Positions 6,877-58,241 of a stretch of 64,000 nt of DNA are shown piece by piece. The stretch is from contig CAWKEB010000002.1 of the NCBI GenBank assembly GCA_963848505.1, positions 389,832 to 453,831 of the forward strand, in the 5' to 3' direction. The notes below the pieces were generated by a model. The model was not told the DNA's origin. It worked only from the letters and a program-made list of their open reading frames with translations, and did not search any database. Source of the stretch: Candidatus Krumholzibacteriia bacterium (GTDB lineage Bacteria; Krumholzibacteriota; Krumholzibacteriia; LZORAL124-64-63). A program made the translations under genes and the position numbers. Numbering within the stretch: position 1 is the stretch's first letter; every line of letters begins with the position of its first letter.

Positions 6877-7485
6877 ATGCGCCCGCTCACGCTGATCGTC
6901 CTGGTGCCTCTGTTGGCGGCCGCCGTGCCCGCTGTCGCCGACCTGACGAACCTGCAGAACGCCATCGGCCTGTACACCGACGTTCCCGGCGACCTGTCCA
7001 ACGTGAACCAGTTGGTGGTGTACGAAGGCGATCCGGGCACGTTCCCGGTGTACGTGGTGCTGACCAACCCCTACAACGAGAACACCGGGGCGTCGATCAG
7101 CCGGGTCGGGGGCTTCGAGTTCCGGCTCGAACTGCCCTCGAACATCATCCTGCTGGACGCCACGCAGCAGCCGTCGTCGATCAACTTCATGAATCCGCCC
7201 AACTTCTGCGTGGGCACGAGCATCTTCGTTTCCGGCGACGTGGCCCTCCTGCTGACCCTGACCCTGGGCGAGTTCAGCGGCAGCGGCGGCCGGATCATGC
7301 TGTCGCCGGTTTCGACCTACCCGTCGATCGCGGGCTCCATGGCGGTGACCGACGCCGACGACGACTTCTCCCTGTCGGCGGCCGTACCCGCGTCGGGCCG
7401 TTTCGATGCGCCGGTGTTCTGCGTCTTCTGCCGCCAATACGACGAGGAGTCCACCTGGGGCGGCATCAAGACCCTGTTCCGCTAG
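6877..7485 (+). CDS. small secreted protein carrying the C-terminal WG-K tag (ends ESTWGGIKTLFR)
   Basis: Signal peptide MRPLTLIVLVPLLAAAVPAVA; GAAGGA lies upstream of the ATG. I recognise no family. Confidence 0.7.
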   Translation: MRPLTLIVLVPLLAAAVPAVADLTNLQNAIGLYTDVPGDLSNVNQLVVYEGDPGTFPVYVVLTNPYNENTGASISRVGGFEFRLELPSNIILLDATQQPSSINFMNPPNFCVGTSIFVSGDVALLLTLTLGEFSGSGGRIMLSPVSTYPSIAGSMAVTDADDDFSLSAAVPASGRFDAPVFCVFCRQYDEESTWGGIKTLFR

Positions 7486-24669: not shown

Positions 24670-24696
24670 CGAGGAAGACTCCTCAGGCTGCGCCGC

Positions 24697-26193: not shown

Positions 26194-26232
26194 GCGTGGC
26201 GCTCCTCTCGGGTGTTGGCAACAATCCCTGCA

Positions 26233-28332: not shown

Positions 28333-28345
28333 CGGTACGTCTCCC

Positions 28346-28654
28346 TTATCGCTTCAGGCTCTGGGCGGCGTCGGCATGCACCGTCCCGAAGTTGCGGTAC
28401 ATGGCCAGCACGATGGCCAGGGCCACGGCGGCCTCGGCCGCCGCCAGCACGATGACGAAGGCGGCCATCATCTGGCCGTCGATCCCGTGTTCGACATGGC
28501 GGCTGAAGGCCACCAGGTTGATGTTCGAGGCGTTGAGCATCAGTTCGACGCCCATCAGGATGCCGACGGCGTTGCGCCGCGACATCACCGCGAACAGGCC
28601 CAGCGAGAACAGGGCCGCGCTGACGGTCAGGAAATGGGGCAGGCCGACGTTCAC
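28346..28654 (-). CDS. nuoK: NADH-quinone oxidoreductase subunit K
   Basis: 102 aa with MGVELMLNASNINLVAF. The GTG start overlaps the nuoJ stop (GTGA). Confidence 0.95.
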   Translation of the reverse strand: MNVGLPHFLTVSAALFSLGLFAVMSRRNAVGILMGVELMLNASNINLVAFSRHVEHGIDGQMMAAFVIVLAAAEAAVALAIVLAMYRNFGTVHADAAQSLKR

Positions 28655-29184
28655 GACGACACCTCCCGGTCGGCGGCCTCGCCGTCGACGTCACCGTTGT
28701 GGCGCTCGCGGATCAGCAGCGCCGCGCCGACCATCGCCGCCAGCAGCACCAGCGACACGTACTCGAAGGGGAAGATGTAGTCGGTCATGAAGTTGGTGCC
28801 GATCTCGGCCGTGGTCGGCTGCGCCGGCAGGGCGCGGCCGCCCCAGTTCACCGCGGTGATCGCCTTGTAGAGCAGCGCGAAGACGGCGACCGCGAACACC
28901 GCCGCCGGCACGTAGCGGTCCAGCCCGTGGCGGCGCTTGCCGTGCTGCGGCACCCGGGTCATCATCACCGTGAACAGCACCAGCACCAGCACGCCGCCCA
29001 CGTAGACCATGACCTGGGTCACGGCGATGAAGTCGGCGCCCAGGTAGGCATAGAGGCCCGCCGCGCCCAGCAGCGTGAACAGCAGCGCGAAGCCGGCGTG
29101 CACGATGTTGGGGCTGAACACGACCCACACCGCCGGCACGACCGTCAGCAGGGCCAGGGCCACGAAGATCAGGTCGGTGATCAC
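28651..29184 (-). CDS. nuoJ: NADH-quinone oxidoreductase subunit J
   Basis: The GTG at 29184 follows AAGGAG and overlaps the nuoI stop (GTGA). It encodes a 177-aa membrane protein. The longer track ORF is an over-extension into nuoI. Confidence 0.9.
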   Translation of the reverse strand: MITDLIFVALALLTVVPAVWVVFSPNIVHAGFALLFTLLGAAGLYAYLGADFIAVTQVMVYVGGVLVLVLFTVMMTRVPQHGKRRHGLDRYVPAAVFAVAVFALLYKAITAVNWGGRALPAQPTTAEIGTNFMTDYIFPFEYVSLVLLAAMVGAALLIRERHNGDVDGEAADREVSS

Positions 29185-29681
29185 GCGTCGTCTCCTTTGC
29201 CGTCGGGCTTGTCTTCCTTCGGCTCCACCCACCAGCCCTGGTCGATGCGGGTCTGGCGGTGACAGGGGATCTTCTGCTCGTTCGGGTCCATGAACTCGTA
29301 GACCAGCGACCGGCGGTCGTAGACCGAGTGGTCGTAGTCGTGGCTCATGGTGATCGAGCCGGTGTGGCAGTTCTCGGTGCAGAGCGAGCACCAGATGCAC
29401 TTGTTGTAGTCGATGGCGTAGCGAATCATCAGGCGATCCTTGCCCTTGCCCTCGGTCTCGATGTAGATGCAGTCGACCGGGCAGAGCTTCGCGCAGATGT
29501 TGCACGCGTCGCAGGTGGTCGTGTCGTTGTGCACGAAACCGCGGAAGCGCTCGGGCATGACCTGGCGCTCGTCCGGGTACTGCAGCGTCACCGGCTTCGT
29601 CCAGATGTGCTTGATGGTGATGCCCATGCCCTGCACGGCCGAGCCCACCGCCTGCACCATGTCCGCGAAGTACTGGACCAT
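29181..29681 (-). CDS. nuoI: NADH-quinone oxidoreductase subunit I (2x[4Fe-4S])
   Basis: Two ferredoxin motifs are present: CDACNICAKLCP and CIWCSLCTENCH. Confidence 0.95.
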   Translation of the reverse strand: MVQYFADMVQAVGSAVQGMGITIKHIWTKPVTLQYPDERQVMPERFRGFVHNDTTTCDACNICAKLCPVDCIYIETEGKGKDRLMIRYAIDYNKCIWCSLCTENCHTGSITMSHDYDHSVYDRRSLVYEFMDPNEQKIPCHRQTRIDQGWWVEPKEDKPDGKGDDA

Positions 29682-29714
29682 CTGCTGCCTCTCTTTATGC
29701 TGAGGCGCCGCCGC

Positions 29715-30764
29715 TCAACCGGCGGCGCCGCTGGCCATCATCCAGATGCCCGCACCCACCGTGCAGACCAGCGCGGCGGGGATCATCACCTTCCAGCACA
29801 GGTGCATCAGCTGGTCGACGCGCACGCGCGGCAGCGTCCAGCGGACCCACATGTTCAGGAAGACCATCAGCACGCCCTTGATCACGAAGGTCAGGGCGGC
29901 CGGCAAAAAGTCCAGACCCGGGATCGGCGACCACCAGCCGCCCAGGAACAGCATCACCGCGATCACCGAGACCAGGAACAGGTTGGCGTACTCCGCCAGG
30001 AAGAAGAAGGCGAAGCGCATGCCCGTGTACTCGGTGTGGTAGCCGGCGACCAGCTCCGACTCCGTCTCCGGCATGTCGAAGGGGCCGCGGTTGGTCTCGG
30101 CGATCGACGCGATGAAGTACAGGAAGAAGGACACGAACAGGAACGGGTTGCGGAAGACGAACCAGTTCCAGATGCCGCCCTGCTGGGCGATCACGATGTC
30201 CTGGGTGTTCAGCGAGCCGGTGTACATGACCACCGGGATCGCGGCCAGGGCCAGGGGGATCTCGTAGCTGACCATCTGCGCCGCGCCGCGCGCCGCGCCG
30301 TACAGGGCCCACTTGTTGTTGCTGGCCCAGCCCGCCATCAGGATGCCGATGATCACCATGCTGCTGACGGCGAAGATGTAGAACAGGCCCAGGTCCAGGT
30401 CCGCGGCCACGAAGCCCGGCGCCCAGGGGATCGCCGCCCAGGCCAGCAGCGAGCCCAGCAGCACCAGGATCGGCGCGAACACGAACAGGCCCTTGTCGGC
30501 CTCGGCGGGGATGATGTCCTCCTTGCCGAGGATCTTCAGCATGTCGGCCACGGCCTGGGCCCAGCCCTGCCAGCGGCCGGTGCGCATGGGCCCCCAGCGG
30601 CTCTGCAGGAAGGCCGCGACCTTGCGCTCCATCCAGGTGAAGATGATGGCGCAGAGGGCCATGACGGTGAACATCAGGGTCGCCATGATCGCGGCGACGG
30701 TGACGTGCGCGCCCGTCGCGCCCAGGCCGGCCTTGTCCATGAAGAACGCGTACATGGCTTCCAT
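29715..30764 (-). CDS. nuoH: NADH-quinone oxidoreductase subunit H
   Basis: 349 aa with ERKVAAFLQSRWGP. The start overlaps the nuoD stop (ATGA). Confidence 0.95.
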   Translation of the reverse strand: MEAMYAFFMDKAGLGATGAHVTVAAIMATLMFTVMALCAIIFTWMERKVAAFLQSRWGPMRTGRWQGWAQAVADMLKILGKEDIIPAEADKGLFVFAPILVLLGSLLAWAAIPWAPGFVAADLDLGLFYIFAVSSMVIIGILMAGWASNNKWALYGAARGAAQMVSYEIPLALAAIPVVMYTGSLNTQDIVIAQQGGIWNWFVFRNPFLFVSFFLYFIASIAETNRGPFDMPETESELVAGYHTEYTGMRFAFFFLAEYANLFLVSVIAVMLFLGGWWSPIPGLDFLPAALTFVIKGVLMVFLNMWVRWTLPRVRVDQLMHLCWKVMIPAALVCTVGAGIWMMASGAAG

Positions 30765-31942
30765 CAGCGGTCGATCTCCCCGAGTACGATGTCCAGCGAA
30801 CCGACGGTGGCGACCAGGTCGGACACCATCAGGCCCACGCCGACCTTCTCGATCACCTGCAGGTTGCAGAATGAGCAGGAGCGAACCTTGTTGCGGAAGG
30901 GCTTCTGGCCGCCGTCGGCGATGATGTAGTGGCCCAGCTCGCCCTTGGCGGTCTCGGTGCGGGTGAAGGCCGCGCCGGCGGGCACGCGCACCGGCTTCTT
31001 CAGCTCGATGCTCTGGTAGGGGCCGTCCGGCAGCTGCTCCAGCACCTGGCGGATCAGCCGGCAGCTCTGCTCGATCTCCCGCACGCGCACGATGTAGCGG
31101 TCCCAGCAGTCGCCCACGGTGCCCATCTCGCCCATGCCGACCGGCACCTCGAAGTCGAACTTCGAGTACAGCGAGTAGGGGTCGTCCTTGCGGCAGTCCC
31201 AGTTGACGCCCGAGCCGCGCAGCACCGGTCCGGTGCAGCCGTAGGCGAAGGCGTCAGCCCTGGAGATGACGCCCACGTCGGCCGTGCGCTCGATGAAGAT
31301 CTTGTTGTAGGTGAGCAGGGTGTTGTAGTCGGGCAGCTTCTTCTTCTCCATCATGGTCACGAACTCGAGCACGTCGTGCACCCAGTTGTCGGCGGGCAGG
31401 TCGTAGCGCACGCCGCCGGGCACCATGTAGTTGTAGAGCATGCGGCCGCCGGCGATGCGCTCCAGCAGGTTGAGGATCTCCTCGCGCTCGCGGAAGCAGT
31501 ACAGCAGCGGCGTCCAGGCCCCCATGTCCAGGCCGAAGGTGGCCAGGGCGATCAGGTGGCTGGCGATGCGCGAGAGCTCGGCCGTGGCGATGCGCAGGTG
31601 CTCGGCGCGGGCCGGGACCTCGATCTGGCCCAGCTTCTCCACCGCGGTCACGTAGGTGTGGTTGCAGGTCACGGGCGCCAGGTAGTCGAAGCGGTCGGTG
31701 TAGACCACCCACTGCTTGTAGTCGACGCCCTCGGCGATCTTCTCGGCGCAGCGGTGCAGGTAGCCCAGCACCGGCGTGACCTTGTAGACGATCTCGCCGT
31801 CGGTGTGCAGCAGCAGGCGCAGCACGCCGTGGGTGGCCGGGTGCTGGGGGCCCATGTTCAGCTCGAGCAGCTCGCTCTTGATGCCCGGCACCTGGTCCTG
31901 GTCGGCCCAGCCGCGCTTGCCGTTGGTCAGGTTGCTCGCCAT
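30764..31942 (-). CDS. nuoD: NADH-quinone oxidoreductase subunit D
   Basis: ATG at 31942 gives ...LNMGPQHPATHGVLRL.... The 694-aa track ORF is an over-extension through nuoC. Confidence 0.95.
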   Translation of the reverse strand: MASNLTNGKRGWADQDQVPGIKSELLELNMGPQHPATHGVLRLLLHTDGEIVYKVTPVLGYLHRCAEKIAEGVDYKQWVVYTDRFDYLAPVTCNHTYVTAVEKLGQIEVPARAEHLRIATAELSRIASHLIALATFGLDMGAWTPLLYCFREREEILNLLERIAGGRMLYNYMVPGGVRYDLPADNWVHDVLEFVTMMEKKKLPDYNTLLTYNKIFIERTADVGVISRADAFAYGCTGPVLRGSGVNWDCRKDDPYSLYSKFDFEVPVGMGEMGTVGDCWDRYIVRVREIEQSCRLIRQVLEQLPDGPYQSIELKKPVRVPAGAAFTRTETAKGELGHYIIADGGQKPFRNKVRSCSFCNLQVIEKVGVGLMVSDLVATVGSLDIVLGEIDR

Positions 31943-31944
31943 GC

Positions 31945-32580
31945 TCAGCCCTCCGCCGGGGTGTCGCCGCCCGCGGGCGCGTCCGCCGCCGGGGCAAAGG
32001 GGTTCTTGCTGTAGGGCTGGCCCTGCAGGGGCACGCCCGACCAGGAGCCGGGCATCACGTAGTCCTTGCGCAGGGGATGGCCCACCCAGTCCTCCTCCAG
32101 CAGCATGCGCCGCAGGTCGGGATGGCCGGCGAAGCGGATGCCCAGCAGGTCCCAGGCCTCGCGCTCGTGCCAACTGGCGGTCGCCCACACGCCCGACACC
32201 GTGGGCACGGAGTTCGCGGCCCGCGGCATGCGCACGCGCAGGGTGAACTTGTGCCGCTGCCCGTGGCTGAACAGGTGGTAGGCCACGCCCAGGTCGCCGT
32301 CGGCCACGCGGTCGCTGGCCTCGGGGGTGCCGTCGTCCTGGTAACCCAGGATGGCCACCGACTTGCCCTTGCCGTTCTCGTCGTAGCCGTCCCAGTCCAG
32401 GCCCGACAGGCACATCAGCTGGTTGCAGTCCAGGCGCGGGTCGTCGCGCAGGAAGGTGCAGGCCCTGGCGATGTCCGCCGTGGCGATCTCGGCCCAGGGC
32501 TCGAGCGGATCCTCGTGGAAGGCGATCGCCCCGGCACCGAGGTGCCCGGCAAGGAGGTCGTAGATGGCTTTGTGCTCCAT
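31945..32580 (-). CDS. nuoC: NADH-quinone oxidoreductase subunit C
   Basis: A 211-aa 30-kDa-subunit-like protein sitting between nuoB and nuoD. Confidence 0.9.
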   Translation of the reverse strand: MEHKAIYDLLAGHLGAGAIAFHEDPLEPWAEIATADIARACTFLRDDPRLDCNQLMCLSGLDWDGYDENGKGKSVAILGYQDDGTPEASDRVADGDLGVAYHLFSHGQRHKFTLRVRMPRAANSVPTVSGVWATASWHEREAWDLLGIRFAGHPDLRRMLLEEDWVGHPLRKDYVMPGSWSGVPLQGQPYSKNPFAPAADAPAGGDTPAEG

Positions 32581-32601
32581 GGTTCGCTCCGGGCCTTTCC
32601 G

Positions 32602-33216
32602 CTACTTGCGGTAGGGGATCTTCTTGGCGTAGTCCTGCACCCACTTGGGGGCCACGAAGCGGCCCTTGCGACCGCGGATCTTGTCCTGCAGGCGCATCAG
32701 GCCCTCCAGCAGCACCTCGGGGCGGGGCGGGCAGCCGGGCACGTACACGTCCACCGGGACGATGAAGTCCACGCCCTTGACCACGTGGTAGCCGTACTTG
32801 AAGTAGGGGCCGCCGCCGATGGCGCAGCTGCCCATGGCGATGACCCACTTCGGTTCCGGCATCTGGTCGTAGATCAGCTTCAGCCGCTTGGCCATCTTCC
32901 CCGTGACCGTGCCCGAGACGATCATCAGGTCGGCCTGGCGCGGGGTCGCACGGAAGGCTCCGGCGCCGAAACGGTCGATGTCATAACGGGTTGCGCTGGT
33001 GGCCATCATCTCGATGGCGCAGCAGGCCAGGCCGAAGGTCACCGGCCAGATGCTCGACAGCCGGGCCCAGTTGAAGACCTCGTCGACGGTGGTCAGGATG
33101 AAGTTCTTGGCGTCGGTCTCGACGACCTCCAGCAGCTGCTGGTCGACGTCGAACGAGAGCATGTTCTCCCGGGAAACGTCGTAGCCCTCGGGGGGCGTGG
33201 TGCTGTCCCTGCTCAC
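32602..33216 (-). CDS. nuoB: NADH-quinone oxidoreductase subunit B
   Basis: Motifs [15 protein letters not shown] and VPGCPPRPE are present. The GTG start overlaps the nuoA stop. Confidence 0.95.
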
Positions 33217-33698
33217 GGTGCCGTGACCTCCTCGTCGACCGGCGCGGCGACCGGGGCGGTCCCCTGCGGACGGTCGATGAGCTGCTTGACCCAGTCGAGA
33301 TCACCCTTGACCCACACGTAGGCCAGGCCCAGGGTGAGGATCGCCAGGAAGATGACCATCTCCCAGAAGACGATGGCGCCCAGGCCGGGCACCGGGAAGA
33401 GCTGCTTGAAGACGACCGCCCACGGGTACAGGAAGATGGTCTCCACGTCGAAGACGATGAAGAACAGGGCGATCAGGTAGAAGCGGACGTTGAAGCGCAC
33501 CCAGGAGGAACCCCGGGGCAGCTCGCCGCATTCATAGGTGGTCAGCTTGTTGGGATTCGGGGCGCTGGGGCGCAGCAGCTTGGCGATGCCGAGGGCCAGG
33601 CCCGCGAACGCGAAGCCGACCAGGACGAAGACCAGGACGGTGCCGAAATGCCCGGTGACACTCGCGTCCACGGCCCCCCAGGGGAGCGTCATAGTCAT
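33213..33698 (-). CDS. nuoA: NADH-quinone oxidoreductase subunit A
   Basis: ATG at 33698. Motifs are YECGE...[14 protein letters not shown]. It has a C-terminal extension. Confidence 0.9.
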
Positions 33699-37469: not shown

Positions 37470-40310
37470 CTACGGCTCGACCGGCCCGAGATACCGGTCG
37501 AGCCAGGCCACCGACTCGCGGACCAGGTCCGCCTTGGGCACCGTGTGCCCGCGCTCGTAGGTCAGGCGCTTCTTGTCCGCCGCCGGCGTGCCCAGCAGAT
37601 CGAACATGGGCTGCTGCGAGCTGGCGGCCGGGAAGAAGAAATCCAGCTCGCCGTTGAGCATCAGCGTGGGCTGCGTCACCCGCGTCACGTAGTTCAGCTG
37701 ATCGGCCTCGGGCAGCGCCCGCTGGAAGCAGAATCCCGCCACGTACAGCACGTTGACCTTCAGCCGCGGCTCGATCGCCGGCAGGATGGCCCCCAGCGCA
37801 CCGCCCCAGCTGACGCCGAAGTAGGCCAGGCGCTCGCCGTCCAGGTCCGCGCGCGATTCGACGAAGTCGATGGCCCGGGCCAGATCCTTGCCCCACATCA
37901 CCAGGTTGTCCTTGTAGAACGCCGTCTCCTCCGGGTAGTCGGAGGTGATCGCGCCGCCCCGCTCGTAGGTGCCCTTGTAGACCGGCAGCAGCAGCGCCCG
38001 CCCACCCCGGGCCAGGAAGTCGAGGCGGCGGAACTCGTTGAGGTTGAACACCCGATTGTGTACGGCGAGGGAGCCCGGGAACACCACCACCGTCTGGTAG
38101 GGCGGCTTGCCGCGGGCCGGCAGGAACAGATGCAGCTGCATCCGCTCGCCGCCATAGGCCGCGTCTATCTCCAGGGTCTGCCAACGGCCGGTGGCGATCT
38201 GCTGGTCGTCGATCTCCTTTGTGCGCAGCGGCTTGCGGTCGTACTGGAACTGGCGCCGGAAGTAGGCGAAGACCTCGTCGGGCACCGGCTGTTCGGCGCG
38301 GAAGTCGCGGAAGGGGATGGGAATCAAACGGCCCAGATCGGTCGCGGCGGGATCGCCCGCGACCGTGCGCATGCAGCGGAAGCCGTTGGACAACGAACGA
38401 TCGAACGCCGGCTGGGCGTAGGCGTCAACGAATGCGTAGCCGGGATCGTTCCAGCCGCCGCCGAGGATGAAATGCTCGCCCGGCCGATCGATGGGGTTGT
38501 GGATCCACTCGCGCACGTTGCCCGCCAGGTCGTGCACGCCGAAGCGGTTGAGGCTGAGGGTGGTGCCCACGGGCACGGTGCCGCGGCCCGAAAGATTGGC
38601 TTTCGGTGCGATCTGCCCGCTGGAAAAGGTGAAGGCAACACGGCTCCAGTGGAAGATCGTGGGCAGGATCCGGCCTGCCCAGGCCGCGTAGGCCGCGGCC
38701 TCGTGCCAGCTGATGCCGGCCACCGGGTGTTCGTCGTCGCCGGCTGGGTATTCGCCCATCATCCAGGCGGCGGGTCCGGGCTGCCCCACCGCGTCGACCA
38801 GGCGGGCCATGGCCTCGGCGCGGGTCAAGGTCCGATCGCGGTCAAGGAACGGTCCGGGCCAGAACTCCTCGCGACCGTAGCCGCCTTCGTCCAGGAAGCG
38901 CTTGTACTGGCGGTTGGTCACCGGATGCCGATCCAGCAGGAAGGCGCCCACCTGTTCGGTCTCCAGATGGTCGAGCCCCGGCATGTAGAGGGGGAAGCCG
39001 CCGGCAGGCACTTCTTCCATTTCGTCGGGGAGCTCGGTCGGCCGTCGCAACACGTGGTGCCAGGTGCAGGTGGTCGGGTCCGAGGCGTTGGTCATGGTCG
39101 GGCCGAGGTTCCAGACCAGGTCGTGCGCCGTGCGGTGTTCCGGCAGCTCCAGCCGCAGGCGCGTCAGCCCGCGGGGGAACGGATGGTTGCACAGCGGTGT
39201 CGGGCCGAGGTCGAGTTCGCGCTCCTGCGGGTCGTCGTAGAAGGCGGCAAAGACCCGGGCGCCCGCCGGATCCGAAGTGATGGAGATGGGGTTGTCGAAA
39301 TCGGGCCGCAGGCGTTCGACCAGGGGATCGCCCGGGGCGAGCTTCTCGATTTCGGCGGCCAGTTCGAAGGCCGTCCAGGAATCACGCCCCTCTTCCATGG
39401 CCAGGATGCGGTCGCACAGGCGGGTCAGCTCGGGCAGACCCTCGTCCCGCGGCCAGCGGCGCAGGGCGGTCAGCTCGGCACCCACTTCGGCGGCGCCGGC
39501 GGGGCGGTCGGCCGGGTCCTTCTCCAGGCAGCGGGACACGATCCGGTCCAGGCCCCGGGGCATGGCGCCGTTGAGGCGCGACGGCAGCGCCGGCTGTTCC
39601 CGTACCATCGACCCCAGCCGCGTGGCCAGGTCGTTGCCCATGAACGGCCGCTGCCCGGTGGCCATCTCGTGCAGCACGCAACCCAGGGCGAAGAGGTCCG
39701 AGCGCTCGTCGGCCTCGCGCCCCGACAGCTGTTCGGGCGCCATGTAGGCAAAGGTGCCCACCAGCGCGCCGGCGCCGGTCAGCGGCGCCGCGACGGTCGA
39801 CGAGTCGCCGCGCGTCGATTCTGCCGGCGGCGCAATCGCCGGCCGCGCCAGGCCGAAGTCCAGCAGCTTGATCCCCGCGGCGGTCAGCATCAGGTTGCCG
39901 GGCTTGAGGTCCCGGTGCACGAGGCCGGCGCCGTGGGCCGCGGCCAGGGCGGCGACCAACTGGCCCGCCATCTCCAGCAGTTCGTCCACCGGTAGTGCTC
40001 CGCGCTCCAGCCGCGCCGCCAGCGTCTCGCCGGCGATCAACTCCATCACCAGATAGTCGACGCCGTCGTTGTGCCCCACGTCGTGCAGGGTGCAGATGTG
40101 CGGGTGGTTGAGCCGGGACAGGGTGCGCGCCTCGCGCTGGAAGCGGGCGCCCAGTTCGGCCGAGTCCCGCAGCCCCCGCGGCAGCACCTTGACCGCCACC
40201 TCGCGCCCCAGGCGTTCGTCGCGGGCCCGGTAGACCTCGCCCATGCCGCCGGCGCCCAGGGCTGCGACGATGGTGTAGGGGCCGAGGCTGGTACCGGGGA
40301 GCAGGAACAT
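37470..40310 (-). CDS. Ser/Thr protein kinase fused to PEGA-like, FGE/sulfatase-modifying-factor-like and alpha/beta-hydrolase domains
   Basis: ATG 40310. Kinase motifs are LGAGGMGEVYRA, VAVKVL, HRDLKPGN, DFGLA and APE. FGE-like cues are HPVTNRQYKRFL, HPVAGISWHEAAAYAAW, DLAGNVREW and GFRCMR. A hydrolase nucleophile elbow (GVSWGG) is present. I see no TM segment. Confidence 0.85.
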   Translation of the reverse strand: MFLLPGTSLGPYTIVAALGAGGMGEVYRARDERLGREVAVKVLPRGLRDSAELGARFQREARTLSRLNHPHICTLHDVGHNDGVDYLVMELIAGETLAARLERGALPVDELLEMAGQLVAALAAAHGAGLVHRDLKPGNLMLTAAGIKLLDFGLARPAIAPPAESTRGDSSTVAAPLTGAGALVGTFAYMAPEQLSGREADERSDLFALGCVLHEMATGQRPFMGNDLATRLGSMVREQPALPSRLNGAMPRGLDRIVSRCLEKDPADRPAGAAEVGAELTALRRWPRDEGLPELTRLCDRILAMEEGRDSWTAFELAAEIEKLAPGDPLVERLRPDFDNPISITSDPAGARVFAAFYDDPQERELDLGPTPLCNHPFPRGLTRLRLELPEHRTAHDLVWNLGPTMTNASDPTTCTWHHVLRRPTELPDEMEEVPAGGFPLYMPGLDHLETEQVGAFLLDRHPVTNRQYKRFLDEGGYGREEFWPGPFLDRDRTLTRAEAMARLVDAVGQPGPAAWMMGEYPAGDDEHPVAGISWHEAAAYAAWAGRILPTIFHWSRVAFTFSSGQIAPKANLSGRGTVPVGTTLSLNRFGVHDLAGNVREWIHNPIDRPGEHFILGGGWNDPGYAFVDAYAQPAFDRSLSNGFRCMRTVAGDPAATDLGRLIPIPFRDFRAEQPVPDEVFAYFRRQFQYDRKPLRTKEIDDQQIATGRWQTLEIDAAYGGERMQLHLFLPARGKPPYQTVVVFPGSLAVHNRVFNLNEFRRLDFLARGGRALLLPVYKGTYERGGAITSDYPEETAFYKDNLVMWGKDLARAIDFVESRADLDGERLAYFGVSWGGALGAILPAIEPRLKVNVLYVAGFCFQRALPEADQLNYVTRVTQPTLMLNGELDFFFPAASSQQPMFDLLGTPAADKKRLTYERGHTVPKADLVRESVAWLDRYLGPVEP

Positions 40311-40411
40311 GGGGGCGGCCTTTCGGGCAACCGTCAACCTGGGGCTCAGCAGGGCGAAGCTGTAGTCTAGCGCTGGGGTTGGCGGGGCGCTACACAGGGG
40401 GTCGGTACCGT

Positions 40412-40452
40412 ACAAAGACCGGTCGCCGAACCCCCTGGGCTCGGCGACCGGT
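40412..40452 (-). terminator. candidate intrinsic terminator of the GH16 gene
   Basis: A perfect 12-bp inverted repeat (ACCGGTCGCCGA / TCGGCGACCGGT) around an 11-nt loop, followed on the minus strand by CTTTGT. Confidence 0.45.
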
Positions 40453-40480
40453 TGAATGAACACCGATGAGAGTCGCGGAC

Positions 40481-52248: not shown

Positions 52249-53103
52249 CTACCCGGCTAGCCGGGTCACGATCAGTCCTCCGTACCGTTCGACCCGCTCC
52301 AGGTAGACCGCCAGCGGCACCTCCACCACGGCGTTCCCCTGGTACCACCCCGGCAGCCCGCTGCCGGCCGCGTGCACCAGCCAGGGCCCGCCGTCCTTCA
52401 CGATGACGATGCCCACGTGCCCGATCACCAGGCCGTGCTCGTCCCGCAGCGCCCGCGCCCTGGCGTCGTCGGGCGCCAGCACCAGCCAGGCGATGTCGCC
52501 TTCGCGCAACTCGCCGGGCACCATCGAGTTCTCGGGCACCCAGGTGAACGAACCCGCCGCATACCGCGCCGTGCCCAGGCTGTCGGGCCGTGCGCCGGTC
52601 AGCCGCGCCGTCACGTCCTGGCCCCACCAGCCGCTGCGCACCATGTCCAGGCTGTAGTCCAGGTGGGCGGGATGGTCGTAGTCGACGCGGCCGTCCGGCC
52701 CGACCACTTCGGCCGCGGGCGCCCCGGCGAAGCGCGTGCGCAACGCCCAGGCCACGGCTTCGCGCCCGTCGGCGGCGCGGGCCAGCTCGGTGACCCGATA
52801 CAACAGGCTGATGCAATCCTGACGCTGGTCCAGGACCAGGCGACCCAGGGCCGCGTAGCCGTCGTCGTCCAGGCCGAAGCAGTAGGACGCGCCGCCCGCG
52901 GCGACGAAGCGCCGGGCCCAGGCGCCGATCCGCGCCGCCAATGGCAGATCAGGGTCGACCGGGGCGCCTACCGGTCCGGCCGCGGCCGTCTCGCCCCCGT
53001 TGAACACGAGCGCGCGATCGACGGCCTGCACCTCGGGGTCGGCGGCGCAGGCCGCGACGGCCAGCATCAACAGCAGCGGGATCAACACACGGAACATGGT
53101 CAT
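52249..53103 (-). CDS. lipoprotein, DUF1460-like (amidase-like fold family)
   Basis: ATG 53103 gives MTMFRVLIPLLLMLAVAACA. DQRQDCISLLYRVTELA and IGHVGIVIVKDGGPWLVHAAGSG resemble DUF1460 as I remember it. Confidence 0.5.
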   Translation of the reverse strand: MTMFRVLIPLLLMLAVAACAADPEVQAVDRALVFNGGETAAAGPVGAPVDPDLPLAARIGAWARRFVAAGGASYCFGLDDDGYAALGRLVLDQRQDCISLLYRVTELARAADGREAVAWALRTRFAGAPAAEVVGPDGRVDYDHPAHLDYSLDMVRSGWWGQDVTARLTGARPDSLGTARYAAGSFTWVPENSMVPGELREGDIAWLVLAPDDARARALRDEHGLVIGHVGIVIVKDGGPWLVHAAGSGLPGWYQGNAVVEVPLAVYLERVERYGGLIVTRLAG

Positions 53104-53202
53104 CCCATCGACAGGAACGCGGCCACGGCTTGCCGCTCCGGCGGCCAAGGCCGATACTGCAGGGGAACGATGCATCCGTCCATCCCGATCCCGGAGCGCG
53201 CC

Positions 53203-53406
53203 ATGACCCGCACCACGCTAATCCGCAACGTCGCCGGCCCCCTGCTCGGCGGCGGCGCCGGCTTCCTGCTGAACAAGTGGATCACCTGCCGCGGCGGCGG
53301 CTGAAACATCACGTCCAACCCGGTGCTGATGATCCTGTTCGGGGCACTGTTCGGTTGGACGCTCCTCTCCGGCGGAGAGGGCAAGGGCAAGCGCAGCGGG
53401 GAGTGA
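53203..53406 (+). CDS. candidate small two-TM selenoprotein (DUF6132-like), with an in-frame TGA at 53302-53304
   Basis: MTRTTLIRNVAGPLLGGGAGFLLNKWITCRGGG-TGA-NITSNPVLMILFGALFGWTLLSGGEGKGKRSGE, in one frame with GC3-rich codons on both sides of the TGA. ATG 53170 is an alternative start. As a plain CDS it would stop at 53304 (33 aa). Confidence 0.4.
53312..53361 (+). promoter_or_regulatory. strong hairpin 10 nt downstream of the in-frame UGA (possible bacterial SECIS)
   Basis: A 9-bp perfect outer stem (CGUCCAACC / GGUUGGACG) plus a 6-bp inner stem (CGGUGC / GCACUG, one G-U pair). There is a 3-nt bulge and a 17-nt loop. Confidence 0.3.
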
Positions 53407-53412
53407 CGGGAA

Positions 53413-53796
53413 TCAGACGTTCGCGGTCGCCGGCCGGGGCAGGGCGTGGCCGCGGAAGGTCGCGCTGTCGGCCTCCACACGGAAATCGTTGAAGACCAGC
53501 CGCGGCACCACGGCACCGCAGTCGGCACAGCAGGCGGGGCCCACAGGCGCTGCGTCCGCCTCGGCCTCGGGCAGTTCGACCTGGCCCGCCTTGACCAGCG
53601 CCACCAACCGCTTGCGCAGCACCTTCACCTCGTCCTGCCAGTCGTGCAGCATCCGCTCCAGCAGATCCAGCGCGTCGTCATCCGCGGCGCCGGCGGCCAC
53701 CCGCTCGACCTGGGCCAGCAGGGCCCGGTAGGCGGCCTCGGCGCGCACGTAGCGCACGCCGTAGTCGTCGAGGTGTTCGCAGAAGTCCATGGGCAT
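53413..53796 (-). CDS. hypothetical protein
   Basis: AAGGAG lies 6 nt upstream of the ATG. Codons are GC3-rich. I recognise no family. Confidence 0.55.
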   Translation of the reverse strand: MPMDFCEHLDDYGVRYVRAEAAYRALLAQVERVAAGAADDDALDLLERMLHDWQDEVKVLRKRLVALVKAGQVELPEAEADAAPVGPACCADCGAVVPRLVFNDFRVEADSATFRGHALPRPATANV

Positions 53797-54043
53797 GAAG
53801 GCTCCTTCCTGGGGTGGTTATCGGCGGCGGCAGGGAGCGATTGACCCCCGCCTGGCCCGGCATATCCCACTACAATCGTCTGATTTGTCACTAAATTGTC
53901 ACGAAACTCCTTGATTATTTAACAGGCTGTGCCGAAATTGGCCTCAGACCGGGGTGGATCGCCACAGGCACGGCGACCGCGGCCCGGGATCACGGCGGAC
54001 CTCGATGAACGGCCCGCCGTCCACCCGACCGGAGGCTGGAACC

Positions 54044-55489
54044 ATGCGCAAGTCACTGCCGATGCTGGCGTTGCTCGTACTCGCGACCGCCCTGGTGGCC
54101 GTGCCCGCGGCGGCCATGAAGACCATCGACGAGCACCAGGACCTCAAGGGTCCGTTCCTGGACGGTCCGGCCGTCACCGCCGCCTGCCTCGATTGCCACG
54201 AGGACGCGGCCCACGACTTCATGAAGACCTCCCACTGGACCTGGCAGCCCATGCAGAACGTGGTGGGCAAGGGCCAGGTGCCCCTGGGCAAGAAGAATAC
54301 GGTGAACAATTTCTGCATCGCGGTCGATTCCAACTGGCCGCGTTGCACCAGCTGCCACGCCGGCTACGGCTGGCAGGACGGCAGCTTCGACTTCAGCGAC
54401 GCCACCAAGGTCGACTGCCTGGTCTGCCACGACAAGACCGGCACCTACCGCAAGTTCCCCACCGGCGCCGGGCACCCGGTCTATGAGCCCACCGAATGGG
54501 AAGGCAAGATCTGGGAGCCCCAGGACCTGGCCAGCATCGCCCGCGCCGTGGGCGTGCCCGACCGCGTCAACTGCGGAGCCTGCCACTTCTCCGGCGGCGG
54601 CGGCAACAACGTCAAGCACGGCGACATGGAACAGGCCCTGCTGCAGCCGGCCCGCGAGCTGGACGTGCACATGGGCGTCGACGGCGGCAACTTCAACTGC
54701 CAGGAGTGCCACGCCACCAACAACCACGACATCCAGGGCAACGCCATGTTCGCCTCGCCCGGCGGCACCAATCATCTGGAGTGCACCTCGTGCCACGAGG
54801 CGGATGTCCACGCCAAGCGCATCCTCAACTGGCACGGCAAGTCGATCGCCTGCCAGACCTGCCACATCCCCGAGTTCGCCCGCTCGGCCCCCACCACGAT
54901 CTGGTGGGACTGGTCGACCGCCGGCCAGAAGCGCGAAGTCCTGACCGACGACAACGGCATGCCGGACTACGATCAGAAGAAGGGCTCGTTCGAGTGGGGC
55001 AAGAACGTGGTTCCCGCCTACACCTGGTACGACGGCGTCAGCGGGCAGTACCTGCTGGGCGAGTCCATCAACCCCGACCAGGTCACGCGGCTGAACTGGC
55101 CCCAGGGCAACCGCACCGACCCCCAGTCGAAGATCTATCCCTTCAAGGTCATGAAGGCCAAGCAGCCGTACGACAAGGTGCGCAAGGTCATCGTCGTGCC
55201 CAAGCTGTTCGGCAAGACCGGCTACTGGAAGAGCTTCGACTGGAACGACGCCATCAAGCAGGGCATGGAGAGTGTGGGCCAGGAGTACAGCGGCGAGTAC
55301 GGCTTCGCCGAGACCGAGGCCTGGTGGAAGCTGAACCACATGGTGGCGCCCAAGGAAATGGCGCTGAAGTGCAAGGCCTGCCACGGCGAGGACGGCCGCA
55401 TGGACTGGGCCGCCCTGGGCTACGAGGGCGATCCCAACAGCAAGCGCGGCATCGCGCGCTTCGAGCTGAGCGAGGAATACAAGGAGTAA
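54044..55489 (+). CDS. octaheme c-type cytochrome, tetrathionate-reductase (Otr) family
   Basis: ATG 54044 follows GGAGG. There is a signal peptide and 8 CXXCH motifs. The spacing and motifs (TSHWTWQ, NNFCIAVDSNWPRCTSCHAGYGW, CLVCHD, VNCGACHF) match my memory of Shewanella Otr-type octahemes. Confidence 0.8.
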   Translation: MRKSLPMLALLVLATALVAVPAAAMKTIDEHQDLKGPFLDGPAVTAACLDCHEDAAHDFMKTSHWTWQPMQNVVGKGQVPLGKKNTVNNFCIAVDSNWPRCTSCHAGYGWQDGSFDFSDATKVDCLVCHDKTGTYRKFPTGAGHPVYEPTEWEGKIWEPQDLASIARAVGVPDRVNCGACHFSGGGGNNVKHGDMEQALLQPARELDVHMGVDGGNFNCQECHATNNHDIQGNAMFASPGGTNHLECTSCHEADVHAKRILNWHGKSIACQTCHIPEFARSAPTTIWWDWSTAGQKREVLTDDNGMPDYDQKKGSFEWGKNVVPAYTWYDGVSGQYLLGESINPDQVTRLNWPQGNRTDPQSKIYPFKVMKAKQPYDKVRKVIVVPKLFGKTGYWKSFDWNDAIKQGMESVGQEYSGEYGFAETEAWWKLNHMVAPKEMALKCKACHGEDGRMDWAALGYEGDPNSKRGIARFELSEEYKE

Positions 55490-56648: not shown

Positions 56649-58241
56649 CTAGCCGCCGCTCGGCACCAGCTTCTCCATGACCTGCTCAAGGCTGAAGCTC
56701 GCCGCCTTCTGCCGCGGCGGGTAGTCCTTGAAGGTGGCCAGGAAGCCGCCCACGTAGGCCTGGGCCGGCACCAGCAGGTAGGCCCGGTCGATCATCCAGT
56801 CGTAGTAGGTGTTCGAGGTGATCTGGGCCCGCTCGTAGGGATCGCGGCGCAGGTTGAACATCAGGGGCAGGCGCAGGGGCGTGAACGGCTCGGCCCACAC
56901 CCGCAGTGTGCCCTGGGCCCGCTGCTCCATGAAGACCAGCTTCCAGTCCTCGTAGCGCAAGGCCGTGAGGTCGCCGTCGTCCGAGAAGTAGAAGACCTCG
57001 CGCCGCGGCCCGGTCTCGACCTGGCCGGTCAGCAGGGGCAGCATGTCGTAGCCGTCGAGATGCACCTTGTACTTGCCGTCGCCGAGCTTGGCGCCCTTCA
57101 GCAGCTGGTCCTTGATGTCCTTCGCGCCGGCCGCCGCGGCGAAGGTGGGCAGCCAGTCCATATGGTGAACGATCTGGTTGTTCCAGCTGCCGGCAGCGAT
57201 GTGGCCGGGCCAGCGCACCATCGCCGGCACGCGCCAGCCGCCTTCCCAGTTGGTGTTCTTCTCGCCGCGGAACGGCGTGGCCGCCGCATCGGGCCAGCTG
57301 TTGTAGTGGGGCCCGTTGTCGGTCGAGTAGAAGACCAGCGTGTTGTCGGCGATGCCCAGTTCGTCCAGCAGCTGCAGGAACCGGCCGATGTGCATGTCAT
57401 GCTCGACCATGCCGTCGCCGTACTCGTCCTGGCCGGAGATGCCGCGCAGCTCGGGCTTCACGTGGGTGCGGAAGTGCATGCGCGTGCCGCTCCACCACAC
57501 GAAGAACGGCTTGCCGGCCTTGACCTGCTCGCGGATGAACGCCAGGGCGCGGTCGGAGGTCTCGTCGTCGACGGTCTCCATGCGTTTCTTCGTCAGCGGC
57601 CCGGTGTCCTCGATCCTCTGCTTGCCGCCGGGCTGGGACCACGAATGGATCACGCCGCGGGGGCCGAACTTCTCACGGAAGGTCTGGCCGTCGGCCAGCA
57701 CCATGTCGCCGGGGTAGTCCTCGTTCTCGGGCTCCTCCTCGGCATTCAGGTGGTAGAGGTTGCCGAAGAACTCGTCGAAGCCGTGCATGGTCGGCAGGTG
57801 CTCGTCGCGGTCGCCCAGGTGGTTCTTGCCGAACTGGCCGGTGGCATAGCCCTGGGCCTTCAGCACGGTGGCGATGGTCGGATCCTCCTTCTGCATGCCT
57901 TCCTTGGCGCCGGGCAGGCCGACCTTGGACAGGCCGGTGCGGAACACGCTCTGGCCCATGATGAAGGAGGCTCGGCCGGCGGTGCAGCTCTGCTCGCCGT
58001 AGTAGTCGGTGAAGGTCATGCCTTCGCGGGAGATGCGGTCGATGTTGGGCGTCTGGTAGCCCATCACGCCGTGGGTGTAGGCGCTGATGTTTGACTGGCC
58101 GATGTCGTCGCCCCAGATGACGAGGATGTTCGGCTGTGGCGGGGGTGGCGTTGCGGTCTGGGCGGCCGCCGTGGCGGCCAGCACGAGCGCGGTCAGCACC
58201 AGCAGGCAGGCGGGCGCGACCAGGCGTCGGGTCTTCGACAT
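56649..58241 (-). CDS. arylsulfatase (Cys-type sulfatase family)
   Basis: A signal peptide with KTRRLVA may be Tat-type. Motifs are NILVIWGDDIG and the C-x-A-x-R site SCTAGRASFIMGQ. Confidence 0.9.
   Translation of the reverse strand: MSKTRRLVAPACLLVLTALVLAATAAAQTATPPPPQPNILVIWGDDIGQSNISAYTHGVMGYQTPNIDRISREGMTFTDYYGEQSCTAGRASFIMGQSVFRTGLSKVGLPGAKEGMQKEDPTIATVLKAQGYATGQFGKNHLGDRDEHLPTMHGFDEFFGNLYHLNAEEEPENEDYPGDMVLADGQTFREKFGPRGVIHSWSQPGGKQRIEDTGPLTKKRMETVDDETSDRALAFIREQVKAGKPFFVWWSGTRMHFRTHVKPELRGISGQDEYGDGMVEHDMHIGRFLQLLDELGIADNTLVFYSTDNGPHYNSWPDAAATPFRGEKNTNWEGGWRVPAMVRWPGHIAAGSWNNQIVHHMDWLPTFAAAAGAKDIKDQLLKGAKLGDGKYKVHLDGYDMLPLLTGQVETGPRREVFYFSDDGDLTALRYEDWKLVFMEQRAQGTLRVWAEPFTPLRLPLMFNLRRDPYERAQITSNTYYDWMIDRAYLLVPAQAYVGGFLATFKDYPPRQKAASFSLEQVMEKLVPSGG

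What the first reader, a model, noticed from the sequence alone, without database searches (positions are those of the whole stretch)
53170..53406. Candidate selenoprotein: small two-TM protein with UGA at the second Cys of a C-x4-C motif, plus a downstream hairpin
Reading through the TGA at 53302-53304 gives a 67-aa product, ...GAGFLLNKWITCRGGG[U]NITSNPVLMILFGALFGWTLL.... From memory, small Bacteroidota-type proteins (I believe Pfam DUF6132) read ...G.IAG.LYY.FVGCSSGTCAITSNP....YGA.MG.LL. In that alignment the TGA falls exactly on the second Cys of C-x4-C. Codon bias stays coding-like on both sides of the TGA. Ten nt after the UGA a 50-nt hairpin begins (53312-53361: 9-bp perfect stem, bulge, 6-bp stem, 17-nt loop), which is the right place for a bacterial SECIS. 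Standard gene callers would miss or truncate this gene, and I do not know of a Sec-containing member of this family.
Basis: partly seen in the sequence, partly recalled or inferred. Interest (0 to 1): 0.75.

Follow-up and report, generated by a model that had tools for sequence, protein, structure and literature searches.

The report
Unlisted small membrane selenoprotein gene (DUF6132-like)
A 67-codon gene that gene callers cut short at an in-frame TGA almost certainly encodes a tiny two-helix membrane protein with selenocysteine in place of an invariant cysteine, and it belongs to a widespread TGA-containing branch of protein family DUF6132 that the selenoprotein catalogues I checked do not list.

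Summary
The ORF at 53203-53406 (+) has one in-frame TGA (53302-53304). Codon statistics are coding-like on both sides of it, and it is the best of 314 open TGAs in the window on that test.

The read-through product scores 46 bits against a profile I built from 120 real DUF6132 proteins (shuffles reach at most 9). The TGA falls on the invariant second Cys of C-x2-G-x-C-x-ITS-x-P.

A TGA-specific DNA pattern found 76 true homologues (34 of 36 genome hits, 42 of 47 metagenome hits) in Krumholzibacteriia, Verrucomicrobia, Delongbacteria, Leptospirales, Fibrobacteraceae, Bacteroidia, Ignavibacteria, Planctomycetota, Spirochaetota and human-gut contigs. All stay conserved downstream of the TGA. Of 240 protein-database relatives, 239 carry Cys there.

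TGA forms carry lineage-specific hairpins just after the TGA, mostly with loops that start with G and with compensatory changes. Eight Cys forms lack them. Two independent assemblies reproduce the window's TGA.

Sec machinery (selA, selB, selC, selD) is not in the window and could not be checked. Neighbouring genes (thioredoxins, rhodaneses, OsmC, and a thioredoxin fusion) point to a thiol/selenol redox or sulfur-relay role. A 2026 table of 119 selenoprotein families and NCBIfam r20 do not list this family.

The parts
53203..53406 (+). Coding sequence of the small selenoprotein candidate: 67 codons including Sec, plus the stop TGA at 53404-53406.
   Evidence: Translation; GC3 and codon model; 46-bit match to a DUF6132 profile; start supported by the orthologue L020 beginning MTRSS....
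53170..53202 (+). Possible 11-codon N-terminal extension from an upstream in-frame ATG. This is the start used by public gene callers, which report a 44-aa truncated ORF. It is the less likely true start.
   Evidence: Most orthologues begin about 29 residues before the first Cys.
53193..53196 (+). Shine-Dalgarno-like GGAG, 6 nt upstream of ATG 53203.
   Evidence: Read directly from the sequence. Its role is inferred.
53227..53283 (+). First hydrophobic helix (residues 9-27, NVAGPLLGGGAGFLLNKWI) with a G-x3-G-x3-G glycine zipper.
   Evidence: Aligns to invariant G columns of DUF6132. The AF2 model of the nearest Cys homologue has a helix here.
53287..53322 (+). Inter-helix loop motif C-R-G-G-G-U-N-I-T-S-N-P. 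The first Cys codon TGC is at 53287-53289.
   Evidence: Invariant C, G, C/U, I, T, S and P columns. This segment is a loop in the AF2 model of P0122.
53302..53304 (+). In-frame TGA, proposed selenocysteine codon.
   Evidence: Aligned to Cys in 239 of 240 homologues. TGA occupies this site in 76 homologous loci. Identical in two independent assemblies.
53312..53361 (+). Candidate bacterial SECIS hairpin. Lower stem 53312-53320 with 53353-53361; upper stem 53321-53327 with 53343-53349; loop 53328-53342. An alternative 4-bp upper stem closes a GUUC loop at 53337-53340.
   Evidence: -25.9 kcal/mol, z = -4.0 on the + strand, against -18.2 kcal/mol on the - strand. The lower stem can pair in 80% of clade cells. 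The GUUC-loop conformer folds at -21.0 kcal/mol.
53323..53370 (+). Second hydrophobic helix (residues 41-56, VLMILFGALFGWTLLS) with G-x3-G. Its codons also form the 3' half of the hairpin.

Best explanation
The region 53203-53406 (+) is a real gene for a 67-residue selenoprotein.

Decoding: the UGA at 53302 is decoded as selenocysteine by the standard bacterial route. SelB carrying Sec-tRNA(Sec) is recruited by the mRNA hairpin immediately downstream (53312-53361), which lies inside the coding sequence.

Product: a divergent member of the DUF6132 family. It has two glycine-zipper hydrophobic helices joined by a short loop that carries C-x2-G-x-U-x-I-T-S-N-P, so a Cys/Sec pair sits at the tip of a membrane helical hairpin.

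What is shown: the reading frame, the homology, the Cys/Sec alignment, conservation of TGA forms across phyla, and the hairpins.

What is inferred: that Sec is actually inserted, and the function. From gene neighbourhoods the most likely role is a membrane-anchored thiol/selenol redox or sulfane-sulfur relay that works with thioredoxin-, glutaredoxin- or rhodanese-type partners. Sec would replace the more reactive Cys.
For: Frame and codon statistics on both sides of the TGA.

Homology: 46.2 bits and E = 1.6e-16 (search space of one sequence) against a profile of 120 PF19628 proteins, with a gapless alignment over profile positions 11-58 spanning the TGA. The best of about 1,900 scored shuffles reached 9.0 bits.

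TGA-containing homologues: a TGA-specific pattern gave 36 genome and 47 metagenome hits. Of these, 34 and 42 score at least 30 bits and the rest score 14.4 bits or less. They come from at least 9 phylum-level groups. Downstream ITS-x-P...G-x3-G is conserved. In the window's clade pN/pS is 0.32 downstream and 0.38 upstream of the TGA.

Cys column: Cys in 239 of 240 database homologues. The exception, P0121, is a TGA that its source translated as W.

Hairpins:
- 82% of 62 distinct TGA forms have a perfect hairpin of -4 kcal/mol or better whose loop starts 16-37 nt after the UGA (mean -7.6). Only 1 of 8 Cys forms does (mean -1.15).
- Loops are mostly GUG, GUUC, GGUAU, GUA or GGUC. This fits the published bSECIS rule of a G in the first two loop positions (PMC13188914).
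- In the Verrucomicrobia/Delongbacteria/Bacteroidia group, helix 12-20/24-32 is 89.5% paired, has 4 pairs changed on both sides, and has a covariation score of 0.516 against 0.193 in shuffles (0 of 500 shuffles reach it).
- Gly two residues after the Pro (P-W-G-S), which builds that stem, is absent from all 239 motif-matched Cys-form proteins.

The window hairpin is stronger on the + strand, -25.9 against -18.2 kcal/mol.

TGA is an ordinary stop in 17 of 40 window genes.

Two independent assemblies (ERR4010640, ERR4010632) are 100% identical to the window, including the TGA.

Functional context:
- trx-trx-exported trx-[Sec gene]-OsmC-ArsR operons.
- A Sec-DUF6132::thioredoxin fusion in L018.
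- Cys forms sit next to thioredoxin, glutaredoxin, rhodanese and MBL-rhodanese genes.
Against: No selA, selB, selD or tRNA-Sec in the 64-kb window, nor in about 615 kb of related loci by a motif scan or a tRNA scan. The Sec trait of this organism is therefore unverified.

Pfam's own DUF6132 model and NCBIfam do not report the window protein.

Rfam has no match.

The window's minimum-energy hairpin has a 15-nt loop, outside the 3-9 nt of the published bSECIS model. Its inner helix is not conserved in the clade (48% paired), and the clade's 9-bp GUUC hairpin is reduced to 4 bp here.

The generic bSECIS model does not discriminate in my implementation: 55 of 62 TGA forms and 5 of 8 Cys forms pass.

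Whole-region folding z-scores are only modestly better downstream than upstream of the TGA (mean -1.05 against -0.45, p = 0.018).

The TGA in related loci was required by the search pattern, so its presence there is by construction. The evidence lies in the number, diversity and downstream conservation of the hits.
Confidence: 0.85

Rival explanations
1. The UGA is read through, but not as selenocysteine. Near-cognate decoding (Trp or Cys) or a local recoding signal inserts another residue, and the hairpin merely promotes read-through.
For: The Sec machinery is unverified. One public gene call translated the orthologous TGA as W, although that is an artefact of the chosen genetic code.
Against: The codon replaces an invariant Cys, which is the classical Cys/Sec signature. 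The hairpins have the position and G-first loops of bacterial SECIS elements. TGA is a normal stop in the window. TGA forms occur in many unrelated phyla.
Confidence: 0.06
2. The real product is the short peptide that ends at the TGA (33 or 44 aa). The downstream sequence is conserved for another reason, for instance as a structured 3' element or as a terminator of the convergent gene 53413-53796 (-).
For: Public gene callers annotate the 44-aa ORF. The hairpin lies about 50 nt downstream of the stop of the minus-strand gene.
Against: The downstream part keeps frame-specific GC3 of 0.91 and a sense codon signal. It aligns residue by residue to the second half of DUF6132 and is under purifying selection at the protein level (pN/pS 0.32). 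No terminator-like site was found on either strand. The hairpin is weaker on the minus strand. The same arrangement occurs in loci that have no convergent gene.
Confidence: 0.03
3. The gene is a pseudogene, or the TGA is a sequencing or assembly error for TGC/TGT.
For: TGA is a single base change away from TGC or TGT.
Against: Two independent assemblies from different runs are identical. There are 76 homologous loci with TGA and an intact, conserved downstream frame. TGA forms carry dedicated hairpins that Cys forms lack.
Confidence: 0.02
4. There is no + strand gene. The three-base periodicity comes from the open antisense ORF 53100-53528 (-).
For: That ORF is open for 142 codons and shares its third codon position with the candidate.
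Against: It scores -30.6 nats as sense against antisense. Its product is Pro/Arg/Ser-rich. It overlaps the 3' end of the gene at 53413-53796. The + frame has specific homology.
Confidence: 0.01

Closest known systems
Pfam DUF6132 (PF19628), Cys-containing small membrane proteins, mainly from Bacteroidota
   Same: Same length class and the same two glycine-zipper helices. Same loop motif C-x2-G-x-C-x-I-T-S-x-P...G-x3-G. Same type of neighbours: ArsR-family regulator, thioredoxin, rhodanese.
   Different: TGA (Sec) replaces the second Cys. The window's clade lacks the YY motif and the Gly before the first Cys, ends in a conserved LLSGGE tail, and falls below Pfam's own model. No function has been established for either form.
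Known bacterial selenoproteins of sulfur and thiol metabolism listed in PMC13188914: rhodanese-like forms 1-5, YeeE/YedE (GUxSG), thioredoxin/glutaredoxin (UxxC), and the putative mercuric transport protein (C/SxxU)
   Same: Sec replaces a redox-active or substrate-carrying Cys. Cys-containing homologues are the majority. The SECIS lies inside the coding region directly after the UGA. The putative mercuric transport protein is listed there under Pfam PF02411. From my own knowledge, not checked here, that family (MerT) is also a small membrane protein with a Cys/Sec pair.
   Different: No sequence relation: no NCBIfam or Pfam selenoprotein model matches. The motif spacing is C-x4-U rather than UxxC or CxxU. 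The protein is only a two-helix hairpin with no thioredoxin fold.
Published bacterial SECIS consensus model (Fig. 2A of PMC13188914, read); the E. coli fdhF SECIS is the classical example (from my own knowledge)
   Same: A stem-loop starts about 11 nt from the U of the UGA. Loops begin with G followed by G or U (GUG, GUUC, GGUC, GGUAU) 16-37 nt after the UGA. In the Verrucomicrobia forms the UGA itself pairs in a lower helix.
   Different: The structure differs between lineages. In the window the most stable fold has a 15-nt loop, and only an alternative conformer shows the GUUC loop. SelB binding has not been tested.

Membership tests
Pfam DUF6132 (PF19628) | Match to Pfam's own HMM above the gathering score (23.2 bits). 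| tested here: not met
   No PF19628 hit for the window product (U replaced by C) even at E <= 10. 28 of 31 other TGA-containing homologues do hit it at E <= 1, best 7e-11.
Pfam DUF6132 (PF19628) | Significant match to a profile built from bona fide members. | tested here: met
   46.2 bits (39.9 with X at the Sec site) against a profile of 120 PF19628-annotated proteins. The alignment is gapless over profile positions 11-58. Shuffles reach at most 9.0 bits.
Pfam DUF6132 (PF19628) | Invariant residues G-x3-G-x3-G ... C-x2-G-x-C-x-I-T-S-x-P ... G-x3-G. | tested here: met
   All are present, with TGA at the second C. Other columns invariant in that sample are not kept: YY becomes LN, the G before the first C becomes T, and Y before the G-A becomes F.
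Pfam DUF6132 (PF19628) | Two-helix hairpin of about 55-90 residues with the motif in the connecting loop. | tested here: met
   Two hydrophobic segments are present in the window product. The AF2 model of the nearest Cys homologue P0122 has helices 11-33 and 46-62 with the motif in the loop, at only moderate confidence (mean pLDDT 65).
Bacterial selenoprotein gene | In-frame UGA aligned with Cys in homologues. | tested here: met
   Cys in 239 of 240 homologues at this column. Nearest Cys form is P0122, 47% identical.
Bacterial selenoprotein gene | Coding conservation continues past the UGA, in this gene and in orthologues. | tested here: met
Bacterial selenoprotein gene | [quoted passage not shown] | tested here: inconclusive
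   The family as a whole fits well. In the window, the strong hairpin has a 15-nt loop. A conformer with a 4-bp stem and a GUUC loop at spacing 32 satisfies the model at -21.0 kcal/mol. However, the generic model also passes 5 of 8 Cys controls, and Rfam shows nothing.
Bacterial selenoprotein gene | selA, selB, selC (tRNA-Sec) and selD present in the genome. | not testable with these tools
   None in the window.
Bacterial selenoprotein gene | Selenium shown in the protein. | not testable with these tools
   Needs an experiment.
Catalogued selenoprotein families (NCBIfam r20; Table 1 of PMC13188914) | Match to any catalogued selenoprotein model or entry. | tested here: not met
   No NCBIfam model matches the 31 members, apart from thioredoxin models on the fused domain of L018. 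None of the 119 listed families cites PF19628 or describes a comparable small two-helix membrane protein. A full-text search for DUF6132 found no relevant paper.

The most novel reading that the evidence does not exclude
Sec-DUF6132 is a new kind of minimal membrane redox or sulfur (selenium) relay. A glycine-zipper helical hairpin, probably oligomeric, presents a Cys-x4-Sec pair at the membrane surface. It passes reducing equivalents or sulfane sulfur between exported thioredoxin-, rhodanese- or cytochrome-type partners and the membrane or cytoplasm. In the window's clade this may be coupled to the conserved neighbouring octaheme tetrathionate-reductase-family cytochrome.
Probability: 0.2. 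Interest if true: 0.75.

Novelty: new member of a known kind. Interest (0 to 1): 0.58.

Why it matters
The finding adds a selenoprotein family that is missing from the catalogues I checked, namely a 2026 table of 119 families and NCBIfam r20.

The family is small, membrane-embedded and taxonomically broad, covering at least 9 phylum-level groups, several poorly studied candidate phyla and human-gut contigs. Standard gene callers systematically truncate or miss it.

It also gives DUF6132, a family of unknown function, its first strong functional clue. The second Cys is a reactive, Sec-replaceable residue, and the genes travel with thioredoxins, rhodaneses and OsmC.

The set of lineage-specific in-frame hairpins, with Cys-form controls, is useful material for improving bacterial SECIS models.

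Tried and rejected
Searches that found nothing:
- Pfam and NCBIfam on the window product. The Pfam miss turned out to reflect the sensitivity of that model, not absence of homology.
- The word-indexed protein search with the window product.
- Rfam at gathering and at permissive thresholds; only noise.
- A promoter and terminator scan of 52800-54100.
- tRNA-Sec in the window and in 34 loci.
- A motif scan for SelA, SelD and SelB signatures in 615 kb of fetched DNA.
- A viral-contig scan for Cys forms.
- Literature searches for DUF6132, and for Krumholzibacteria together with selenocysteine; nothing relevant. The BSepDB supplements are not held.

- The cluster look-up does not accept U.

Tests that were too blunt:
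- Whole-region MFE z-scores gave only a weak signal.
- My implementation of the generic bSECIS model does not separate Sec forms from Cys forms.

Considered and rejected: the antisense ORF, pseudogene or sequencing error, a reassigned TGA, and the hairpin acting as a terminator of the convergent gene.

Full report
**1. What is in the sequence**

The region 53104-53412 lies between two minus-strand genes. One is an AmiA-like lipoprotein gene whose start I place near 53103. The other is a 127-aa gene of unknown function at 53413-53796.

On the + strand an ORF runs from ATG 53170 or ATG 53203 to TGA 53404-53406, with one in-frame TGA at 53302-53304. I prefer 53203 as the start for three reasons:
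- A GGAG sits 6 nt upstream (53193-53196).
- The orthologue L020 starts at the equivalent Met.
- The distance from the start to the first Cys then matches the family.

**2. Is it coding on both sides of the TGA?**

- GC3 is 0.97 before and 0.91 after the TGA, while GC1 and GC2 are about 0.5-0.6.
- A codon-usage model trained on 23 window genes prefers the + sense frame to the best other frame by 13.3 nats upstream and 7.8 nats downstream.
- The open antisense ORF 53100-53528, which shares the third codon position, scores -30.6 nats and is a shadow frame.
- Of 314 TGAs in the window with 30 open codons on either side, this one ranks first for coding signal on both sides. The next two are ordinary gene junctions.
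- TGA is a normal stop codon here: 17 of 40 predicted genes end in it, including this gene.

**3. Homology**

- A sequence written from that recollection hits PF19628 at 47.7 bits and retrieved 820 real proteins, and all 120 listed carry PF19628.
- A profile built from 120 of them scores the window product at 46.2 bits (E = 1.6e-16 for one sequence; 39.9 bits with X at the TGA). The alignment is gapless over profile positions 11-58 and spans the TGA.
- About 1,900 scored composition-preserving shuffles reach at most 9.0 bits.
- The product keeps the invariant G-x3-G-x3-G, C-x2-G-x-C-x-I-T-S-x-P and G-x3-G columns. The TGA sits exactly on the second Cys.
- It lacks the YY pair and the Gly before the first Cys, so it is a divergent member.

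**4. TGA-containing relatives**

I scanned for a degenerate DNA pattern that required TGA at that codon plus the invariant residues. The pattern is unique in the window and absent from 100 shuffles.

- It found 36 loci in one-genome-per-species GTDB contigs and 47 in metagenome contigs.
- Scored against the DUF6132 profile, 34 and 42 of these reach at least 30 bits. The remaining 7 stay at 14.4 bits or below, a clean split.
- The true hits come from Krumholzibacteriia, Verrucomicrobia, Delongbacteria, Leptospirales, Spirochaetota, Fibrobacteraceae, Bacteroidia, Ignavibacteria, Planctomycetota, unclassified MAGs and human-gut metagenomes.
- They give 62 distinct sequences around the TGA.
- All continue in frame through ITS-x-P and the second helix to a nearby stop.
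- In the window's clade, pN/pS is 0.32 for the 24 codons after the TGA and 0.38 for the 24 before it.

The closest relatives are Krumholzibacteriia MAG loci. L020 is 67% identical in the small protein. L027 shares synteny, with the octaheme cytochrome 83% identical and the AmiA-like protein 73% identical. The window therefore most likely comes from that lineage.

**5. Cys against Sec at the column**

A profile of the window's clade retrieved 956 proteins.

- The one W (P0121, 66% identical to the window product) is a TGA that its source translated with another genetic code.
- The nearest true Cys form, P0122, is 47% identical.
- So the window's clade appears to be all-TGA, and the wider family is overwhelmingly Cys. 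This is the classical Cys/Sec pattern.

**6. Is the TGA an error?**

Two Logan assemblies from different runs (ERR4010640, ERR4010632) are 100% identical to the window over 1.5-1.8 kb, including the TGA. Their gene calls show the truncated 44-aa ORF.

**7. The hairpin**

*In the window.*
- 53312-53361 folds at -25.9 kcal/mol (z = -4.0) on the + strand, and at only -18.2 kcal/mol on the - strand because of G-U pairs.
- The structure is a 9-bp stem, a 3-nt bulge, a 7-bp stem and a 15-nt loop.

*In the relatives.* Each lineage has its own hairpin right after the UGA:
- Verrucomicrobia, Delongbacteria and Bacteroidia pair the S-N/S-P-W-G-S codons into a 7-9-bp stem with a GUG or UUG loop.
- Leptospirales have a GUA loop.
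- Most Krumholzibacteriia have a 9-bp stem with a GUUC loop inside an outer stem.
- The human-gut clade has GGUAU.
- L072, L076 and L082 have GGUC.

*Tests.*
- A simple test (perfect stem of at least 5 bp, loop of 3-8 nt starting 16-37 nt after the codon) gives -4 kcal/mol or better in 82% of 62 TGA forms (mean -7.6), against 1 of 8 Cys forms (mean -1.15).
- In the first group, helix 12-20/24-32 is 89.5% paired (33-61% when partners are slid). Four pairs change on both sides, including a coordinated AGC-to-UCG switch of both Ser codons. The covariation score is 0.516 against 0.193 in shuffles, and 0 of 500 shuffles reach it. These changes largely separate two clades, so they represent few independent events.
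- The Gly in P-W-G-S that builds this stem occurs in none of the 239 motif-matched Cys-form proteins. The RNA structure appears to constrain the protein sequence.
- In the window's clade the helices are 83% paired against 41-56% when slid, with little covariation.

*How the window compares with its clade.*
- The window shares the outer stem (80% paired across the clade).
- It has replaced the inner 9-bp stem by its own 7-bp helix, which is only 48% paired in the clade.
- A conformer that keeps the clade's GUUC loop on a 4-bp stem costs 6 kcal/mol more (-21.0 against -27.0).

*Limits of the SECIS evidence.*
- The published consensus model (PMC13188914) is met by that alternative conformer, not by the minimum-energy fold.
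- My implementation of that model does not discriminate: 55 of 62 TGA forms and 5 of 8 Cys forms pass.
- Whole-region z-scores are only modestly better downstream.
- Rfam has no match.

**8. What could not be shown**

The window has no selA, selB, selD or tRNA-Sec. Nor does the roughly 615 kb of related DNA I held. Sec insertion itself is therefore inferred.

**9. Likely function**

An AF2 model of the nearest Cys form gives two helices (11-33 and 46-62) with the motif in the connecting loop, at moderate confidence (pLDDT 65).

Gene neighbourhoods are consistent across forms:
- **Delongbacteria/Bacteroidia TGA forms:** trx (CFQC), trx (WCGPC), exported trx (WCGPC), [Sec gene], OsmC, ArsR.
- **Planctomycetota L018:** the Sec protein is fused to a CGPC thioredoxin domain, and another trx lies upstream.
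- **L072:** a YeeE/YedE-type sulfur transporter is adjacent.
- **L005:** Crp, TauE and MBL-rhodanese lie upstream.
- **Human-gut forms:** the gene lies between a polyferredoxin-like membrane protein and an Rrf2 regulator.
- **All eight sampled Cys forms** fall into two context types. Three (L084, L086, L091) have ArsR-DUF6132-thioredoxin, two of them followed by DUF302. Five (L085, L087-L090) have DUF6132 followed by rhodanese genes, four of them downstream of Crp, YgaP-like TM and an MBL-rhodanese or pyridine-nucleotide-disulfide-reductase-rhodanese gene.
- **P0122** is followed by a glutaredoxin/thioredoxin gene that overlaps it.
- **The window's clade:** the conserved neighbours are the AmiA-like lipoprotein gene and an octaheme cytochrome with the PF11783 domain, in 19 loci. 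This may reflect shared ancestry only.

I therefore propose a membrane-anchored thiol/selenol redox or sulfane-sulfur relay. The details are inferred.

**10. Novelty**

- The 2026 inventory of 119 prokaryotic selenoprotein families (PMC13188914) has no entry with PF19628 or a comparable small membrane hairpin.
- NCBIfam r20, which carries the curated selenoprotein models, matches none of the 31 members.
- A full-text search for DUF6132 found nothing relevant.
- I rate it a new member of a known kind: a bacterial selenoprotein family with Cys homologues and an in-frame SECIS.

**Verdict**

Confidence that this is a genuine Sec-encoding DUF6132-like gene is about 0.85. The main gap is the unverified Sec machinery.

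Noticed in passing
window 53954-55489 (+); likely start 54062: An octaheme c-type cytochrome with the PF11783 (Cytochrome_cB) domain lies about 650 nt downstream of the Sec gene. From my own knowledge this domain marks the tetrathionate-reductase family. It is syntenic with the Sec gene in 19 Krumholzibacteriia-type loci. The 2026 review lists the tetrathionate reductase family octaheme cytochrome (TIGR04315) as a selenoprotein in some species. The copy here has an uninterrupted ORF.
   Followed up: partly
L092:586-789 (protein P0121): A public JGI gene call holds an orthologue with W at the Sec position and again at the terminal TGA. The contig was translated with a TGA-as-Trp code, which masks a selenoprotein.
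   Followed up: yes
L018 (Planctomycetota MAG), match at 6990-7057 (+): The TGA-containing DUF6132 domain is fused to a C-terminal thioredoxin domain (CGPC), giving 172 residues in total. A separate thioredoxin gene lies about 400 nt upstream.
   Followed up: partly
L001, L003, L011, L016, L017, L021-L024, L028-L030 and related metagenome loci; codons +6 to +9 after the TGA: The residues P-W-G-S after the motif occur only in TGA forms. No Gly is seen at that position in 239 Cys-form proteins. Their codons form the GUG-loop hairpin, so the RNA structure appears to dictate protein sequence.
   Followed up: yes
L095:1566-1700 and L096:1239-1373 (equivalent to window 53170-53304): Public gene callers annotate only the 44-aa N-terminal fragment that ends at the TGA.
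   Followed up: yes
L005 (Bacteroidetes MAG), match at 3984-4051 (+): This TGA form sits in the typical Bacteroidota Crp, TauE, MBL-rhodanese context but shows no convincing hairpin after the TGA. It may be a pseudogene, a sequencing error, or a different SECIS type.
   Followed up: no
L042, L044, L058, L061, L063, L070, L071, L078, L083: A nearly identical TGA-containing form recurs in nine contigs, four of them (L042, L061, L071, L083) labelled human gut metagenome and the others unlabelled. It lies between a polyferredoxin-like 4Fe-4S membrane protein and an Rrf2 regulator, and its hairpin loop is GGUAU.
   Followed up: partly
window 3099-5147 (-): A response-regulator receiver domain is fused to a Na+/sulfate (CitMHS-type) transporter. 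A histidine kinase and a second receiver gene lie next to it.
   Followed up: no
window 37470-40463 (-) and 56649-58241 (-): A Ser/Thr protein kinase is fused to an FGE-sulfatase (formylglycine-generating enzyme-like) domain. An arylsulfatase gene lies elsewhere in the window.
   Followed up: no
window 23149-33671 (-): A complex I (nuo) operon with hits to the chain 3, 20-kDa, 49-kDa (a 626-aa product), NADH dehydrogenase (PF00146), chain 6 and chain 4L families and three antiporter-like subunits. By the usual naming these are A, B, D, H, J, K, L, M and N, with C and D possibly fused. No E, F or G genes were seen in the stretch I annotated.
   Followed up: no
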